Positions 34,943 through 37,729 of a stretch of DNA of 43,377 bases are shown here, in pieces. Each line of letters starts with the position of its first letter. Position 1 is the stretch's first letter. Below the pieces are notes generated by a model. That model was not told where the DNA came from. It did no database searches and worked only from the letters and a program-made list of their open reading frames with translations. The position numbers and the translations under genes were made by a program. Origin of the DNA: an uncultured Candidatus Saccharibacteria bacterium (GTDB taxonomy: Bacteria > Patescibacteriota > Minisyncoccia > UBA11713 > 2-01-FULL-45-33); assembly GCA_964422785.1 (NCBI GenBank), contig CAYRCJ010000001.1, forward strand, positions 1 to 43,377, given 5' to 3'.

Positions 34943-36385
34943 ATGGAATATCAAGGCACAATCGGGCTTGAAATCCACTCCGAACTTCGCACAAAAACGA
35001 AGATGTTTTGCGGCTCAAAAAACGATTCCAATGAGCGTCATCCCAATATTAATATCTGCCCCGTCTGCATGGGGCATCCGGGTACGTTGCCGGTTATAAA
35101 CGAAGAGGCGGTGCGCCATGTTCAGCGTGTTGGGCTGGCGCTTGGCGGCCAGGTGCAGAAATTTTCTCAATTTGACCGCAAGAATTATTTTTATCCGGAT
35201 CTGCCCAAGGGATATCAAATTTCTCAATACCAGCATCCTTTGGTTTTTGGAGGCGAGCTTAAGGGGGTAAGAATAACCAGAGTGCATTTGGAGGAAGATA
35301 CGGCCAGACTCTCACATGAAGGAAGCTCCGACGCGAAGTCGGAGCGACCAGCTTCGCTGGTCGACTTCAACCGAGCCGGAGTTCCTTTGATGGAATTGGT
35401 TACCGAGCCTGATTTTCGGGACGCCAAAACAGCGAGAGAATTTTGCGAAGAACTTCAGCTTGTTTTGCAATATTTAGGGGCGTCATACGCGAATATGGAA
35501 AAAGGGGAGATGCGATGCGAAGCAAACATATCACTAAACATGGGAACAAAAGTTGAAATAAAAAATCTCAATTCTTTTCGGGCGGTTGAAAAAGCCATTG
35601 AATACGAGATTGAACGCCAAAAAAGATTGTTGGAGAGCGGCGAAAAAGTTCACCAGGAAACCAGGGGGTGGGACGAAGACAAAGAAATTACTTTTTCGCA
35701 GAGAAAAAAGGAATCAGCCCACGACTATCGTTATTTCCCTGAGCCGGATTTGCCCCCGTTTAATTTCGACGACAAATACATAGAGTCTCTAAGGGCGACC
35801 ATTCCCGAACTTCCCTGGCAAAAAAGAAAGAGATTGATTGAGGAATACAAAATTCCTGTTCATATGGCTGAAATTTTGGTTAGAGAAAAGGCGCTTTCTT
35901 CTTTTTGGGAGGAGACAGTTTCCGAACTTAAGGAGTGGGAAGATCCTGAAAAGTTTGAAGAAGGAATGAAGCTGGCTGTAAATTATTTTACCTCCGATCT
36001 TTTTGGTTTGATAAAAGAAAAGGAAATACCGATATCGGAACTTTTGGTGGACCCGGAAAACTTCGCGGAACTCATCAAAATGATCTCAAACAAAGAAATT
36101 TCTTCCCGCGCGGCCAAAGATGTTTTGATCCATATGGTAGAAGTCGGGGGAGACCCGTCAACCATTGTAAAAGATAAAGGACTTGCTATGGTAAGCGACG
36201 AAAAATCGCTCGAGGAAATGGCCAAACGGATAATATCCGAAAATCCTAAAGCAATTGAGGACTACAAAAAAGGAAAACAAAATTCTATCCAATTTTTGGT
36301 GGGACAAATGATGAAAGAAACCAAGGGGGCGGCGAGTCCGGAGCTTGCCCGAACCCTCTTGACAAAACTAATAGAAAGAGTATAA
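34943..36385 (+). CDS. gatB: Asp-tRNA(Asn)/Glu-tRNA(Gln) amidotransferase subunit B
   Basis: GLEIH.EL.TKTKMFC, ICPVCMGHPGTLPV, HLEEDTA..., SLVDFNRAGVPLMELVTEPD and a C-terminal GatB/YqeY domain (QFLVGQMMKETKGAASP). Confidence 0.95.
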   Translation: MEYQGTIGLEIHSELRTKTKMFCGSKNDSNERHPNINICPVCMGHPGTLPVINEEAVRHVQRVGLALGGQVQKFSQFDRKNYFYPDLPKGYQISQYQHPLVFGGELKGVRITRVHLEEDTARLSHEGSSDAKSERPASLVDFNRAGVPLMELVTEPDFRDAKTAREFCEELQLVLQYLGASYANMEKGEMRCEANISLNMGTKVEIKNLNSFRAVEKAIEYEIERQKRLLESGEKVHQETRGWDEDKEITFSQRKKESAHDYRYFPEPDLPPFNFDDKYIESLRATIPELPWQKRKRLIEEYKIPVHMAEILVREKALSSFWEETVSELKEWEDPEKFEEGMKLAVNYFTSDLFGLIKEKEIPISELLVDPENFAELIKMISNKEISSRAAKDVLIHMVEVGGDPSTIVKDKGLAMVSDEKSLEEMAKRIISENPKAIEDYKKGKQNSIQFLVGQMMKETKGAASPELARTLLTKLIERV

Positions 36386-36386
36386 T
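36359..36386 (+). promoter_or_regulatory. Perfect-consensus sigma70 promoter at the very 3' end of gatB, pointing into a noncoding region
   Basis: TTGACA (36359-36364), a 16-nt spacer, then TATAAT (36381-36386, containing the gatB TAA stop). The predicted TSS is around 36392-36394 (GG). Confidence 0.5.
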
Positions 36387-36392
36387 GAAAAG

Positions 36393-36686
36393 GCGAGATG
36401 CGCGGCTGGCGGAAGGTCCGCTATGCTGGCCATCAAACGGGGAACGCCGCAGAAGGGTGACGCCGATGACGGGTCGGCGCTTCACGGAAGCGGAGTTCCC
36501 CACCGCACTTTTAAATTCAAAAATTTTTGTCCGTATAGATTACTGAATAACTGGTTTGTAGTAGTCCATCTGTATTGGACAGTCTAATGGTGTTGGCCAG
36601 TTATGTCACAATCTAGCAGAGCTTAAAGATCCTCCTTCTAGTCTCCGATTGGAGACGGGCTCTGTTTCAAAATAAACAGCCTTAGC
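36393..36686 (+). ncRNA. Candidate structured noncoding RNA, family unassigned
   Basis: It lies in a 333-bp gap between convergent genes, bounded by the consensus promoter and a terminator. Positions 36401-36510 are 67% GC (74/110, counted), whereas 36511-36690 are 38% GC. A rod-like fold is possible: GGGGAAC/GUUCCCC, CCGC/GCGG and GUGACGCCG/CGGCG(CU)UCAC. Further hairpins are gtctcc gatt ggagac and ctgttt caaaat aaacag. A possible long-range pairing joins 36413-36432 with 36594-36624. Confidence 0.35.
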
Positions 36687-36718: not shown

Positions 36719-37729
36719 TCATATTTTTAACAACTTCATCGCTTCTTTTTCTTTCGAAACCCAGTGAATGTCTTTATTTTTTTTAAACCAAGTCATTTGC
36801 CTTTTGGCGTAGTGGTTTATTTCGGTTTCCAGTTTTTCTATCATAGTTTTTTTATCTATTTTTTTGCGGATAAATGAAGAGATATAGCGATATTCCAAAC
36901 CAAGATCATATAGACGTTTCCATGTTAGGCCAGCCCTTGGCTGGTGGGCCTTGGGCCCAAGTTTTTTTATTTCTTTAATAATCCCCGGCAGCCGTTTAAT
37001 TAATCTTTTGTGTATTCTTTTTTTGAGCCCTTCTTTGGATTTTTTGATCCCTAGCCAGAGTGCGCTCTGGCTAACCAATGAAGCCTCCTCACTCATTCTC
37101 GGCCGTCCAGCGACGGCCTCCGAGGATTTCGCGCCTTTTTGCCCCTCGCTTCGCTCGGGTACCATGCCAAAAAGGCCGAAAAACCCGTTCGGAGGCTCAT
37201 TGGTTATCCCTCCCTTCTTGCCTTTCGCAATCTCAATAGCCCTCACCAATCTCACAGGATTTTTGGCATCAATATTTTTTGCTCTTTCTGGATTTATTTT
37301 CTTTAAAATTTTAAACAGTTCTTTCACAGATTTTTTGGCCAATTTTTTCCGAAGTGCCTGATTTGGGGGAGTGCATGCGGTATCGATTTTCCCCAGCGCC
37401 ACATCGATATAAAAACCGGTACCACCGACAACAATCGGGATTTTATTTTTTTTGTATATTTTATCCGCAGCTTCATTGAAACATTTTTTGAAATCTTGGG
37501 CCGTGAAAATTTTCTCGGGATCGGCCACGTCCAGGCAATAATGCGGGATGCCGCGCATTTCCTTTTTTGTAATTTTTCCGGAGCCGATATCTAGGCCCTT
37601 GTATACCTGGCGCGAATCCGCGGAGATTATTTCCCCGCCGATTTTTTTGGCGATTTTAACAGCCAAATCAGATTTGCCCGAGGCAGTGGGTCCGACCACA
37701 ACTACCATTTTTTTATTGTTTGACAGCAT
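36719..37729 (-). CDS. miaA: tRNA dimethylallyltransferase (carrying an internal ~45-aa insertion)
   Basis: The P-loop is VVVGPTASGKSDLA. Also present are ISADSRQVYKGLDIGSGK, IPIVVGGTGFYI, LGLEYRY and AKRQMTWFKK. Confidence 0.9.
   Translation of the reverse strand: MLSNNKKMVVVVGPTASGKSDLAVKIAKKIGGEIISADSRQVYKGLDIGSGKITKKEMRGIPHYCLDVADPEKIFTAQDFKKCFNEAADKIYKKNKIPIVVGGTGFYIDVALGKIDTACTPPNQALRKKLAKKSVKELFKILKKINPERAKNIDAKNPVRLVRAIEIAKGKKGGITNEPPNGFFGLFGMVPERSEGQKGAKSSEAVAGRPRMSEEASLVSQSALWLGIKKSKEGLKKRIHKRLIKRLPGIIKEIKKLGPKAHQPRAGLTWKRLYDLGLEYRYISSFIRKKIDKKTMIEKLETEINHYAKRQMTWFKKNKDIHWVSKEKEAMKLLKI
37072..37206. repeat. 135-bp GC-rich element flanked by inverted repeats, embedded in frame in miaA
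   Basis: The terminal inverted repeat is taaccaatgaagcctcc (37072-37088) / ggaggctcattggtta (37191-37206), 16 bp with one bulge. The length is 135 nt, or 45 codons. GC is 57% (77/135, counted), and the flanking miaA is visibly AT-rich. Internal hairpins are ggccgtc cagc gacggcc, gcctttttg..caaaaaggc and ccgaa aaacccg ttcgg. Confidence 0.5.

What the first reader, a model, noticed from the sequence alone, without database searches (positions are those of the whole stretch)
37072..37206. 135-bp inverted-repeat-flanked, GC-rich, hairpin-dense element inserted in frame in miaA
A 16-bp terminal inverted repeat with one bulge (37072-37088 / 37191-37206) brackets exactly 135 nt, or 45 codons, with no stop codon in the miaA frame. 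The element is 57% GC (counted), and the flanking miaA sequence is visibly AT-rich. It contains at least three internal hairpins. The encoded segment (..TNEPPNGFFGLFGMVPERSEGQKGAKSSEAVAGRPRMSEEASLV..) lies between the conserved RAIEIA helix and the ..LGIK strand. MiaA proteins normally have only ~25-30 residues there, and here there are ~60. This is the signature of a palindromic element that colonises coding sequences and is tolerated as a surface loop, as described for Rickettsia palindromic elements. Alternatively it could be a structured RNA module within the mRNA. An additional perfect palindrome gccagag tgcg ctctggc (37054-37071) abuts the left end.
Basis: partly seen in the sequence, partly recalled or inferred. 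Interest (0 to 1): 0.7.

Follow-up and report, generated by a model that had tools for sequence, protein, structure and literature searches.

The report
Palindromic repeat element inside miaA
A 145-base hairpin-forming repeat that is scattered through the tiny genomes of CPR (Patescibacteria) bacteria sits in frame inside the tRNA-modification gene miaA and is read through as a floppy extra protein loop, much like the "selfish DNA in proteins" known from Rickettsia; I found no earlier description of it in this bacterial group.

Summary
Window 37072-37206 is 135 nt (45 stop-free codons of miaA), 57% GC against 40% for the rest of the gene, and is closed by a 16-bp bulged inverted repeat.

It is one copy of a previously unannotated repeat family. 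A strict 33-nt pattern found 74 copies in 73 stretches of 185,579 species genomes. All but one of these are from CPR/Patescibacteria MAGs, with up to 7 copies per genome. None match Rfam.

The family has a variable 15-25 bp closing stem (P1) around a conserved core with two arms:
- 32 of 38 predicted pairs show compensatory changes.
- 89% of cells are paired, against 66% in shuffles and 38-47% in slid controls.

About a quarter of copies lie deep inside real genes (miaA, UvrC, GT4 glycosyltransferases, Wzy-like ligases, YfhO-like proteins, an SLT transglycosylase). They occur in both orientations and use all five stop-free frames. The rest fill short intergenic spacers.

In MiaA the insert replaces a roughly 17-residue loop with 54 residues that AlphaFold leaves disordered, while the rest of the protein folds as MiaA.

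The mode of spread is unknown: no transposase and no clear target duplication were found. Cores are nearly identical within a genome while closing stems differ, which is unexplained.

The parts
37066..37211 (-). Whole element as matched by the family covariance model. It includes a few flanking bases and is read in the same sense as miaA.
   Evidence: cmsearch with model R1, filters off: 126.1 bits, E=1.7e-27, full model 1-145. It is the only significant hit in the window.
37191..37206 (-). P1 closing stem, 5' arm (TAACCAATGAGCCTCC)
   Evidence: Inverted repeat. P1 pairs covary across 52 copies: 16 of 17 pairs have changes on both sides.
37184..37190 (-). Conserved junction J1/2 (GAACGGG; family consensus GAGCGGA). 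Its A/G-C pairs with the U/C-G of GAGUGA or GAGCGA in J3/1.
   Evidence: Alignment A2 has CGG invariant. Columns 25/132 read GC 28, AU 15, GU 5.
37168..37183 (-). P2 stem, 5' arm (TTTTTCGGCCTTTTTG)
   Evidence: RNAalifold helix 2: 8 of 9 pairs with compensatory changes.
37161..37167 (-). Conserved asymmetric internal loop GCATGGT (family consensus GGCAUGGU)
   Evidence: Invariant or nearly invariant columns in A2.
37142..37160 (-). P2b variable tip hairpin (ACCCGAGCGAAGCGAGGGG)
   Evidence: 4 of 4 modelled pairs covary. The tip length varies and carries insertions of up to about 80 nt in other copies, for example L054.
37127..37141 (-). P2 stem, 3' arm (CAAAAAGGCGCGAAA)
   Evidence: Pairs with 37168-37183.
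37118..37126 (-). Conserved junction J2/3 (TCCTCGGAG; CCUCGGAG is invariant in the sampled copies)
   Evidence: Alignment A2. Part of this invariance comes from the search pattern used to collect the copies.
37102..37117 (-). P3 hairpin (GCCGTC-GCTG-GACGGC): variable stem, conserved GCUGG loop
   Evidence: 4 of 5 pairs covary, for example GGCCGUC/GACGGCC here against GCUCCGC/GCGGAGC in L003.
37089..37101 (-). Conserved junction J3/1 (CGAGAATGAGTGA). It holds the TGA that closes the sixth reading frame.
   Evidence: Alignment A2 and frame count.
37072..37088 (-). P1 closing stem, 3' arm (GGAGGCTTCATTGGTTA)
36719..37729 (-). Host gene miaA (tRNA dimethylallyltransferase), 336 aa. The insert is residues ~176-220, between helix 158-170 and strand 223-228.
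   Evidence: Pfam IPPT 2e-54; PDB MiaA hits; AF2 model pTM 0.82 with pLDDT below 50 only at residues 174-209; TM 0.80 to 2zm5/3foz.
37052..37073 (.). Abutting perfect 9-bp hairpin TAGCCAGAG-TGCG-CTCTGGCTA. Whether it belongs to the element is uncertain.
   Evidence: It is not part of the family model, and its gene-sense 3' arm encodes the conserved LWLG.

Best explanation
The segment is one copy of a dispersed, non-coding, palindromic repeat family of CPR/Patescibacteria genomes, mostly Paceibacteria-type lineages such as Giovannonibacteria.

Architecture. Each copy is about 145 nt. A variable 15-25 bp closing stem (P1) brings the two ends together around a conserved GC-rich core with two arms:
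[P1]-GAGCGGAUUUUGAGGCYGUUUUGGCAUGGU-[hairpin]-CAAAACRGCCGAAACCUCGGAG-[stem, GCUGG loop]-CGAGAAUGAGCGA-[P1]

Shown. The family lands at the DNA level in short intergenic spacers and in coding sequence, in either orientation. Five of its six reading frames carry no fixed stop.

Inferred. Because of this, copies that fall in frame in a structurally permissive place (a surface loop or an interdomain linker) do not destroy the gene, and selection lets them stay.

Shown for miaA. The copy sits in the loop between the RAIEIA helix and the WLGIK strand. It is transcribed and translated with the gene. It adds about 45 residues that are predicted to be disordered, and the rest of the protein keeps the MiaA fold.

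Inferred for miaA. The peptide itself has no function. What is conserved is the nucleic-acid fold.

Inferred, mechanism unknown. The fold is kept because it is what the element's spreading or copy-correction machinery recognises, as folded single-stranded DNA or RNA. Template-switch correction inside the palindrome may also contribute.

The closest behavioural analogue is the Rickettsia palindromic element.
For: Repetition. 74 exact matches to a 33-nt pattern lie in 73 stretches. All but one are CPR MAGs, and about 0.1 matches are expected by chance (my own calculation). Counts per genome are 7 in LBYG01, 5 in CAYIOQ01, and 4 each in CAYHXN01 and JBBTZM01. There are 87 covariance-model hits in 640 kb of loci.

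Fold. 32 of 38 pairs have compensatory changes. 89.4% of cells are paired, against 66.5% in shuffles (0 of 500 as high) and 38-47% in slid controls. 514 cells have double changes against 169 in shuffles.

Not a known RNA. No Rfam hit for the window copy or for 18 consensus-like copies.

In-gene copies. 19 of 79 distinct copies lie at least 60 nt deep inside ORFs of 100 aa or more, 9 sense and 10 antisense. The hosts are real genes: GT4 glycosyltransferases, Wzy_C, YfhO, SLT and UvrC, plus MiaA.

Frames. All five open frames are used. The sixth has an invariant TGA.

miaA carries it in both orientations. Sense copies are in the window, L001, L003, L005, L014 and L025. Antisense copies at the same loop are in L010, L037, L082 and L083. 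The two states are interleaved on a MiaA tree built without the loop.

Translated, not removed. Every in-gene copy is stop-free in the host frame. Length variants in miaA differ by multiples of 3: +12 nt in L014 and L025, +36 nt in L001. Tight intergenic copies separate complete, different genes (iscS|nifU, cofD|glmS, metG|tatD, uvrC|uvrA) and never split one gene.

Tolerated loop. The AF2 model has pTM 0.82 with only residues 174-209 below pLDDT 50, and TM 0.80 to E. coli MiaA-tRNA.

Peptide not conserved. An exhaustive profile search of 1.84 billion cluster representatives finds only 3 proteins. P0004 switches frame inside the element.
Against: - No mobility machinery was identified.
- There is no convincing target-site duplication. 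The best flanking repeat averages 2.9 nt against 2.6 nt in controls, and flanking repeats of 8 nt or more occur in 22% of copies against 10% in controls.
- No copy has its halves separated by a gene.
- No filled-versus-empty pair of otherwise identical sites was found, so movement is inferred from distribution and was not observed.
- Only one copy lies in the 43-kb window. The rest of this genome could not be examined.
- Within a genome, cores are up to 96-99% identical while the P1 arms are only 29-69% identical. Simple copy-and-paste of the whole element does not predict this. It needs gene conversion of cores, or separate spread of cores.
- Orthologous miaA copies (window against L001) keep P1 paired through double changes. 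This implies either continuing constraint at this locus or hairpin-templated correction.
- The strand that folds better (G-U 86 against A-C 43) is antisense to flanking co-directional genes in 29 of 39 cases. This is unexplained.
Confidence: 0.8

Rival explanations
1. The element is mainly a functional cis-acting RNA structure that the host uses wherever it occurs, including inside the miaA mRNA. Possible roles are an mRNA stabiliser, a processing site, a protein-binding platform, a translation pause, or a ribozyme. Its spread is secondary.
For: - Strong covariation and invariant junction nucleotides across several CPR classes.
- Variable-length expansions at hairpin tips, as in functional RNAs.
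- G-U exceeds A-C two to one on one strand.
- P1 pairing is kept by double changes in orthologous miaA copies.
- Many copies exactly fill spacers between co-directional genes.
- Cores are homogeneous within genomes, as expected if they co-evolve with one trans factor.
Against: - In-gene copies are antisense as often as sense.
- In 29 of 39 co-directional contexts the better-folding strand is not the one transcribed with the neighbours.
- There is no association with a particular gene class.
- No Rfam family or ribozyme match, even at E up to 10.
- No promoter-like site in the window copy.
Confidence: 0.2
2. It is a DNA-level element acting as folded single-stranded DNA, for example a recombination or transposition site for an HUH/Y1-type or other site-specific enzyme, as with REP/RAYT, IS200/IS605 ends or integron attC. 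Its orientation would be set by replication direction.
For: - It occurs in both orientations relative to genes but with a 3:1 bias, as seen for single-strand transposition systems (from my knowledge of IS608/ISDra2).
- No clear target duplication.
- The fold is conserved rather than the sequence in the stems.
- The strand asymmetry of G-T against A-C fits one active strand.
- A Y1_Tnp gene lies near miaA in L005.
Against: - The L005 Y1_Tnp is flanked by its own unrelated hairpins (ATGTTAGACGC-CGA-GCTTCTAACAT), with no similarity to the element.
- No such gene is near other copies in the loci examined.
- The element is four to five times longer than REPs.
- Its ends show no GTAG/CGTC head or attC-type boxes. 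This is from sequence inspection only.
Confidence: 0.15
3. It is a lineage-specific MiaA protein insertion with a protein-level role. The hairpin and GC content would be incidental.
For: - A homologous peptide is present at the same place in several Giovannonibacteria MiaA proteins of 55-71% identity.
- The reading frame is always kept.
Against: - The same DNA occurs in intergenic spacers and in unrelated proteins, in five frames and both orientations.
- Stem changes alter the peptide freely, for example AVAGRPR against LRAGGAR.
- The peptide is predicted to be disordered.
- The peptide profile finds almost nothing else.
Confidence: 0.03
4. It is an intervening sequence removed from the mRNA (intron-like) or from the protein (intein-like).
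For: The closing stem brings the two flanks together, and the length is a multiple of three.
Against: - Every in-gene copy is stop-free in the host frame, and indels are multiples of 3. A spliced sequence would not need either.
- No gene is split by an out-of-frame copy.
- No intron or ribozyme model matches.
- 45 residues is too short for an intein, and there are no intein motifs (one search shows only IPPT/IPT).
Confidence: 0.02

Closest known systems
Rickettsia palindromic elements (RPE-1 to RPE-10; Ogata et al., as summarised in the MITE review PMC10969869)
   Same: - Length of about 100-150 bp, with palindromic ends and a stable hairpin.
- Many dispersed copies.
- A large fraction are inserted in frame in unrelated housekeeping genes.
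- Insertions sit where the protein fold tolerates them.
- Hosts are small-genome, host-dependent bacteria.
- No transposase is known.
   Different: - Unrelated host phylum (CPR/Patescibacteria).
- No sequence relationship was tested or is expected.
- Here the conserved part is a core with two arms and heavy covariation, shared across several classes, while the closing stem is hypervariable.
- Cores are nearly identical within a genome.
- Five reading frames and both orientations are documented in real genes.
- RPEs are described as encoding a conserved peptide. Here the peptide is not conserved.
Bacterial MITEs that make in-frame fusions (for example Coxiella burnetii QMITE1, intragenic ERIC, Anabaena MITEs; PMC10969869, PMC5896051)
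   Same: - Small and non-coding.
- Terminal inverted repeat.
- Multi-copy.
- Occasionally read through as part of host proteins.
   Different: - MITEs are defined by terminal inverted repeats shared with a parent IS, and by target-site duplications. Here no parent IS was found, duplications are not evident, and the 'inverted repeats' differ between copies of one genome.
REP/BIME elements with RAYT transposases
   Same: - GC-rich palindromes.
- Multi-copy.
- Fill intergenic spacers after genes.
- Structure matters more than sequence.
   Different: - REPs are 20-40 nt and extragenic by definition.
- REPs carry a GTAG/CGTC head and go with a RAYT gene (PMC3733652 abstract).
- This element is about 145 nt, has a branched fold and enters genes.
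- The one Y1 gene seen has unrelated hairpins.
Curated structured RNA families (Rfam 15)
   Same: Covariation-supported multi-helix fold with invariant junction nucleotides.
   Different: - No family matches at gathering or at E up to 10.
- It occurs inside ORFs and antisense to genes.

Membership tests
Rickettsia palindromic elements (as a kind: in-frame palindromic repeats) | Length of about 100-150 bp with palindromic ends forming a stable hairpin | tested here: met
   135-147 nt; 16-bp bulged closing stem; -79.8 kcal/mol, z = -5.8.
Rickettsia palindromic elements (as a kind: in-frame palindromic repeats) | Many dispersed copies per genome | tested here: met
   Up to 7 strict-pattern copies per related CPR genome, and more with the covariance model. 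For the window's own genome only 1 copy in 43 kb could be seen.
Rickettsia palindromic elements (as a kind: in-frame palindromic repeats) | In-frame insertion in unrelated protein-coding genes | tested here: met
   MiaA, UvrC, GT4, Wzy_C, YfhO and SLT hosts; 19 of 79 copies are intragenic.
Rickettsia palindromic elements (as a kind: in-frame palindromic repeats) | Insertion compatible with the host protein fold (surface loop or linker) | tested here: met
   In MiaA the insert has pLDDT below 50 while the rest is confident and matches solved MiaA. GT4 copies lie between the two Pfam domains, and the UvrC copy lies between GIY-YIG and UVR.
Rickettsia palindromic elements (as a sequence family) | Sequence homology to RPE consensus sequences; Rickettsia host | not tested
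The host is a CPR bacterium, going by the best named MiaA homologues and the titles of loci carrying copies. I do not file it as an RPE family member.
Rickettsia palindromic elements (as a sequence family) | Element encodes a conserved peptide | tested here: not met
   The peptide profile finds 3 cluster representatives in 1.84 billion. Five different frames are used.
MITE | Terminal inverted repeats | tested here: met
   P1 arms of 15-25 bp are present in all full copies. However, they differ between copies of one genome.
MITE | Target-site duplication | tested here: inconclusive
   Best flanking repeat averages 2.9 nt against 2.6 nt in controls. Repeats of 8 nt or more occur in 22% against 10% of controls. 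One 16-nt case was found, in L029.
MITE | Parent autonomous IS with the same ends | tested here: inconclusive
   No separated halves or transposase-containing version in 650 kb of loci. Whole genomes were not scanned.
REP/BIME-RAYT | 20-40 nt extragenic palindrome with GTAG/CGTC head, associated with a RAYT gene | tested here: not met
   The element is about 145 nt, has a branched fold and is intragenic in 24% of copies. The Y1_Tnp in L005 has unrelated flanking hairpins.
Any Rfam 15 RNA family | Score at or above the family gathering threshold | tested here: not met
Intron / intein | Removal from the RNA or protein; catalytic core or splicing motifs | tested here: not met
   No intron or ribozyme model hit. 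Only IPPT/IPT/AAA domains in the protein. All in-gene copies are stop-free and in frame. Actual removal is not testable with these tools.

The most novel reading that the evidence does not exclude
The conserved two-arm core is a working nucleic-acid machine: a new class of mobile structured RNA or single-stranded DNA. It could be a self-processing or protein-recruiting module that is copied or corrected from a master within each genome. That would explain why cores are 96-99% identical within a genome while the closing stems are unrelated, why pairing is kept at old in-gene copies, and why one strand is favoured. Under this reading the in-frame protein insertions are by-products of an undescribed spreading mechanism peculiar to CPR bacteria.
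Probability: 0.2. Interest if true: 0.9.

Novelty: new variant of a known kind. Interest (0 to 1): 0.72.

Why it matters
CPR bacteria have some of the smallest and most streamlined genomes known, so a family of about 145-nt repeats that fills their spacers and enters essential genes is unexpected.

- It gives a second, phylogenetically independent case of the Rickettsia phenomenon of selfish DNA living inside proteins. That makes the question of how such elements spread, and why they are tolerated, open to comparison.
- It explains part of the odd length variation and low-complexity loops of CPR proteins. This matters for annotation, homology search and structure prediction.
- It flags spurious small ORFs (P0121-P0124, P0126) that are really repeat copies.
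- The covariation-supported fold, the within-genome homogeneity of the cores and the strand bias point to an unknown mechanism that could be tested with existing groundwater metatranscriptomes and strain-resolved metagenomes.

Tried and rejected
- **Second copy in the window:** none found by a 3-mismatch search, blastn, or the covariance model with filters off.
- **Known RNA:** Rfam at gathering threshold and at E up to 10 for the window, Rfam at gathering threshold for 18 other copies, and ARAGORN all gave nothing except tRNAs elsewhere.
- **Word-indexed protein search with the insert-peptide profile:** it failed to return even the MiaA positives, so it is useless as a negative. It did give the small ORFs that led to the intergenic copies L007 and L008.
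- **Exhaustive peptide search:** only 3 representatives, so the peptide is not the conserved entity.
- **Viral contigs:** no copy.
- **Target-site duplications:** two analyses, both inconclusive.
- **Core inserting into pre-existing hairpins (nested model):** no empty P1-type hairpins or juxtaposed arms in 650 kb. The same P1 type (..CCAATG../..CATTGG..) recurs at non-orthologous sites in different genomes. Not supported.
- **Link to the Y1 transposase in L005:** its flanking hairpins are unrelated.
- **In-place inversion against independent insertion, for the sense and antisense miaA copies:** the flanking loop sequences are too diverged to decide.
- **Promoter or terminator inside the window copy:** nothing above shuffles.
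- **Literature:** no paper was found that links CPR/Patescibacteria with palindromic, MITE-like or in-frame repeats, or that prints the conserved motifs. The library is incomplete, so this is not proof of novelty.
- **Source record of the window:** not retrievable.
Full report
**1. The observation**

miaA is window 36719-37729 on the minus strand: 336 aa, Pfam IPPT E=2e-54. Inside it, 37072-37206 is 135 nt with no stop in the miaA frame. This segment is 57.0% GC. The rest of the gene is 40.2% GC and the window is 43.9%.

Its ends form a 16-bp inverted repeat with one bulged base. As RNA, 37050-37215(-) folds to -79.8 kcal/mol against -57.7 +/- 3.8 for dinucleotide shuffles, giving z = -5.8.

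The abutting perfect 9-bp hairpin at 37052-37073 is also real.

Solved MiaA structures and uninserted relatives have 16-19 residues between the RAIEIA helix and the WLGIK strand. This protein has 54.

No second copy exists in the window. No Rfam family or tRNA matches.

**2. Relatives of the gene**

The best homologues are MiaA proteins of Candidatus Giovannonibacteria and other Patescibacteria. Their lengths range from 281 to 367 aa. Nearly all of this variation lies in this one loop.

Several relatives of 55-71% identity carry a homologous insert (P0002, P0004, P0005, P0008, P0010, P0011). I fetched their DNA as L001, L003 and L005.

The DNA alignment shows that stems change on both sides while junctions stay fixed:
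- The closing stem is AACCAATGA-GCCTCC/GGAGGCTTCATTGGTT here and ACTAATG-ACCCTCT/AGAGGGTGCATTAGT in L003.
- The short hairpin is GGCCGTC-GCTG-GACGGCC here and GCTCCGC-GCTG-GCGGAGC in L003.
- Length variants differ by 12 or 36 nt, so the reading frame is kept.

**3. The element is not confined to miaA**

A peptide-profile search was technically poor, because it missed the MiaA positives. It did return small hypothetical ORFs containing SEPRAGGARMSE. Their contigs hold a full copy in an intergenic spacer with a completely different closing stem (L008), and a partial copy next to glmS (L007).

From six copies I derived the pattern CTCGGAGNNNNNNGCYGGNNNNNCGAGAATGAG. I scanned one genome for each of 185,579 species with it. 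The scan gave 74 matches in 73 stretches, where I calculate about 0.1 expected by chance.

All but one of the matching stretches are from CPR MAGs: Giovannoni-, Jorgensen-, Terry-, Harrison-, Specht- and Andersenbacteria, 'Parcubacteria', and MAGs titled 'Saccharibacteria'. The MiaA proteins of two of the 'Saccharibacteria' MAGs (L010, L037) resemble the Giovannonibacteria ones. The exception is one MAG titled Omnitrophota. Several copies occur per genome: 7 in LBYG01, 5 in CAYIOQ01, and 4 each in CAYHXN01 and JBBTZM01. Viral contigs hold none.

**4. The fold**

I aligned 52 copies with MAFFT, without reference to any structure. RNAalifold then predicts 38 pairs in five helices:
- a long closing stem, P1;
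- a two-pair extension of P1 that switches between G-C and A-U;
- a long arm, P2, with a variable tip, P2b;
- a short arm, P3, with a GCUGG loop.

Of the 38 pairs, 32 show compensatory changes. On the same alignment:
- 89.4% of cells are paired, against 66.5% in column shuffles (0 of 500 shuffles as high) and 38-47% when partners are slid by 1-3 columns.
- 514 cells carry double changes, against 169 in shuffles.

The junctions are invariant or nearly so: GCGG, GGCAUGGU, CCUCGGAG and CGAGAAUGAG. Part of that invariance comes from the pattern used to collect the copies.

A covariance model built from this alignment gives 126 bits for the window copy, and no other hit in the window. It gives 87 hits in 640 kb of fetched loci, including diverged copies that the pattern missed. 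Eighteen consensus-like copies have no Rfam match.

**5. Where the copies sit**

Of 79 distinct full copies, 19 lie at least 60 nt deep inside ORFs of 100 aa or more. Nine are sense and ten antisense.

The hosts are real genes, in addition to MiaA:
- GT4 glycosyltransferases, with the copy between the two domains;
- Wzy_C O-antigen-ligase-like proteins;
- YfhO-like membrane proteins;
- an SLT transglycosylase;
- UvrC, with the copy between the GIY-YIG and UVR domains.

All five stop-free frames are used:
- Sense frame, peptide ..AGGARMSE..: MiaA, UvrC, YfhO.
- Sense frame, peptide ..RWASENE..: YfhO-like.
- Antisense frame, peptide ..LILARPA.GSE..: MiaA, SLT, GT4.
- Antisense frame, peptide ..SFSPLQR..: Wzy.
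- Antisense frame, peptide ..HSRP.S.GLRG..: Wzy, GT4.

The sixth frame has an invariant TGA.

Frames are open across whole copies in 24-57% of cases. For shuffles of the same composition the figure is 11%.

MiaA itself carries the element in the opposite orientation at the same loop in L010, L037, L082 and L083. On a MiaA tree built without the loop, sense and antisense carriers are interleaved. This means either repeated insertion or in-place inversion, and the diverged flanks do not allow a choice between them.

The remaining copies fill short spacers, often within 1-30 nt of the neighbouring stop and start codons. The flanking ORFs are complete, different genes: iscS|nifU, cofD|glmS, metG|tatD and uvrC|uvrA. 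No gene is split by a copy.

**6. Effect on MiaA**

AlphaFold2 with 69 homologues gives pTM 0.82. Only residues 174-209 (plus 1-3) fall below pLDDT 50. These lie between helix 158-170 and strand 223-228. The model matches E. coli MiaA bound to tRNA with a target-normalised TM-score of 0.80.

The insert peptide is not conserved as a protein. An exhaustive profile search of 1.84 billion cluster representatives finds three proteins. One relative changes frame inside the element.

I conclude that the copy is translated as a disordered loop. The nucleic-acid fold is what is under constraint, not the peptide.

**7. How it works: shown and inferred**

Shown:
- It is a dispersed, multi-copy family limited to CPR genomes.
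- It has a conserved fold.
- It occupies spacers and permissive protein sites, in either orientation.
- It is read through.

Inferred:
- It spreads at the DNA level as a non-autonomous element.
- Selection removes copies that break genes.
- The fold is the recognition feature for whatever moves or corrects it.

Not found:
- No transposase.
- No parent element.
- No clear target duplication.
- No filled-versus-empty site pair.

**8. Features that a plain MITE or RPE picture does not explain**

- *Cores and closing stems evolve differently within a genome.* Cores are on average 86% identical and reach 96-99%. The P1 arms of the same pairs are 29-69% identical. The same P1 type nevertheless recurs at non-orthologous sites in different genomes. 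This points to concerted evolution of cores, by gene conversion or copying from a master. A model in which cores insert into pre-existing hairpins found no support.
- *P1 stays paired at old in-gene copies.* Orthologous miaA copies keep P1 paired through double changes. This needs either continuing constraint or hairpin-templated correction, a known mutational route in quasi-palindromes (from my own knowledge, not tested here).
- *One strand is favoured, and it is usually not the transcribed one.* G-U pairs outnumber A-C 86 to 43 on the GAGCGG...GAGAAUGAG strand. Yet that strand is antisense to co-directional neighbours in 29 of 39 cases (18 against 8 under the stricter rule).

These points keep open a functional RNA or single-stranded-DNA reading.

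**9. Comparison with known elements**

In behaviour this is closest to the Rickettsia palindromic elements as summarised in PMC10969869. It shares their size, palindromic ends, dispersal, frequent in-frame insertion in unrelated genes, and compatibility with the host protein fold.

It is not filed as an RPE family member:
- The host phylum differs.
- Homology was not tested.
- The 'conserved peptide' feature is not met.

It meets the MITE criteria of small size, inverted ends and multiple copies. It does not meet the criteria of target duplication and a parent IS; both tests were inconclusive.

It is not REP/BIME-like in size, location or association with a Y1 transposase. It is not in Rfam 15.

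I found no paper describing it. The library is incomplete, so this is not proof of novelty.

**10. Verdict**

The miaA insert led to a widespread structured repeat family of CPR bacteria that I could not find described anywhere. The family behaves like RPEs but has unusual evolutionary features.

Noticed in passing
window 36385-36515: A 130-nt intergenic stretch just after the gatB stop is 60-68% GC in a 44% GC genome. It folds to -64.5 kcal/mol (z = -4.8). It has no Rfam hit and no similarity to any fetched locus. GatB is 534 aa in L003 and L005 against 480 aa here, so a related stretch may be read through there.
   Followed up: partly
L001 10517-10558 and 1215-1246; L003 miaA loop; L052 4001-4032: A second, small repeated hairpin (CCCCTCTCC-TTCGTAA-GGAGAGGGG, peptide PLSFVRRGG) has covarying stems and a conserved loop. 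It lies in frame in the same MiaA loop, next to the main element, and also in intergenic DNA.
   Followed up: partly
L082 3679-3768 (miaA), L060 2880-2913 (uvrC), L025 5408-5474, L014 6365-6403: A third in-frame repeat family (peptide ENLAQRDGASRAI(L/R)Q.ENMRV) is found in MiaA and UvrC. Its inner perfect palindrome CCTGCCTGCCGGCAGGCAGG also occurs alone elsewhere (L067, L078, L026) and nested inside a copy of the main element (L065).
   Followed up: partly
MiaA loop of relatives P0018, P0039, P0029, P0040, P0044 etc.: Further unrelated loop inserts recur among Giovannonibacteria MiaA proteins: KHAYSSAGELLCSRRRAAQGF and VDFAGFASTQPRGPLGGREESKIN. The loop appears to collect several element families. 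Their DNA was not examined, except for the related stretch in L010.
   Followed up: no
L069 2312-2453 and 6257-6401; L039; L075 (genome JBBTZM01); L028/L034; L026/L080: Copies within one genome have cores that are 93-99% identical, while their closing stems are only 29-64% identical. This suggests gene conversion of cores, or spread of cores separately from the stems.
   Followed up: partly
L029 1273-1288 and 1482-1497: A 16-nt exact direct repeat, GAGGAAATATATTTTT, flanks one copy plus about 20 nt on each side. It is the only long flanking repeat seen among 78 copies.
   Followed up: partly
L011 4224-4367: In this in-gene copy the interior of arm P2 is inverted (GG-hairpin-ACACCATGCC instead of GGCATGGT-hairpin). 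It is a small inversion between the arms of the stem.
   Followed up: no
L042 5258-5366(-) and 5388-5530(+); L007 3466-3606 and 3674-3809; L031 1994-2138 and 3089-3230: Copies occur in adjacent pairs. They are head-to-head in L042, tandem in L007, and 1 kb apart in L031.
   Followed up: no
L005 441-1103: An IS200-like Y1 transposase gene lies near the miaA locus. It is flanked on both sides by the hairpin ATGTTAGACGC-CGA-GCTTCTAACAT, with a third copy inside the gene. These hairpins are unrelated to the element.
   Followed up: yes
P0121-P0124, P0126 (public protein predictions): These small 'hypothetical proteins' of 51-150 aa look like translations of copies of the repeat (shown intergenic for P0121 and P0123, in L008 and L007), meaning spurious gene calls.
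   Followed up: partly
L032 3706-3850: The highest-scoring copy (144 bits) lies between iscS and nifU on a contig of a MAG titled Candidatus Omnitrophota. It is the only non-CPR title among the 73 loci. This may be a binning error or a transfer.
   Followed up: no
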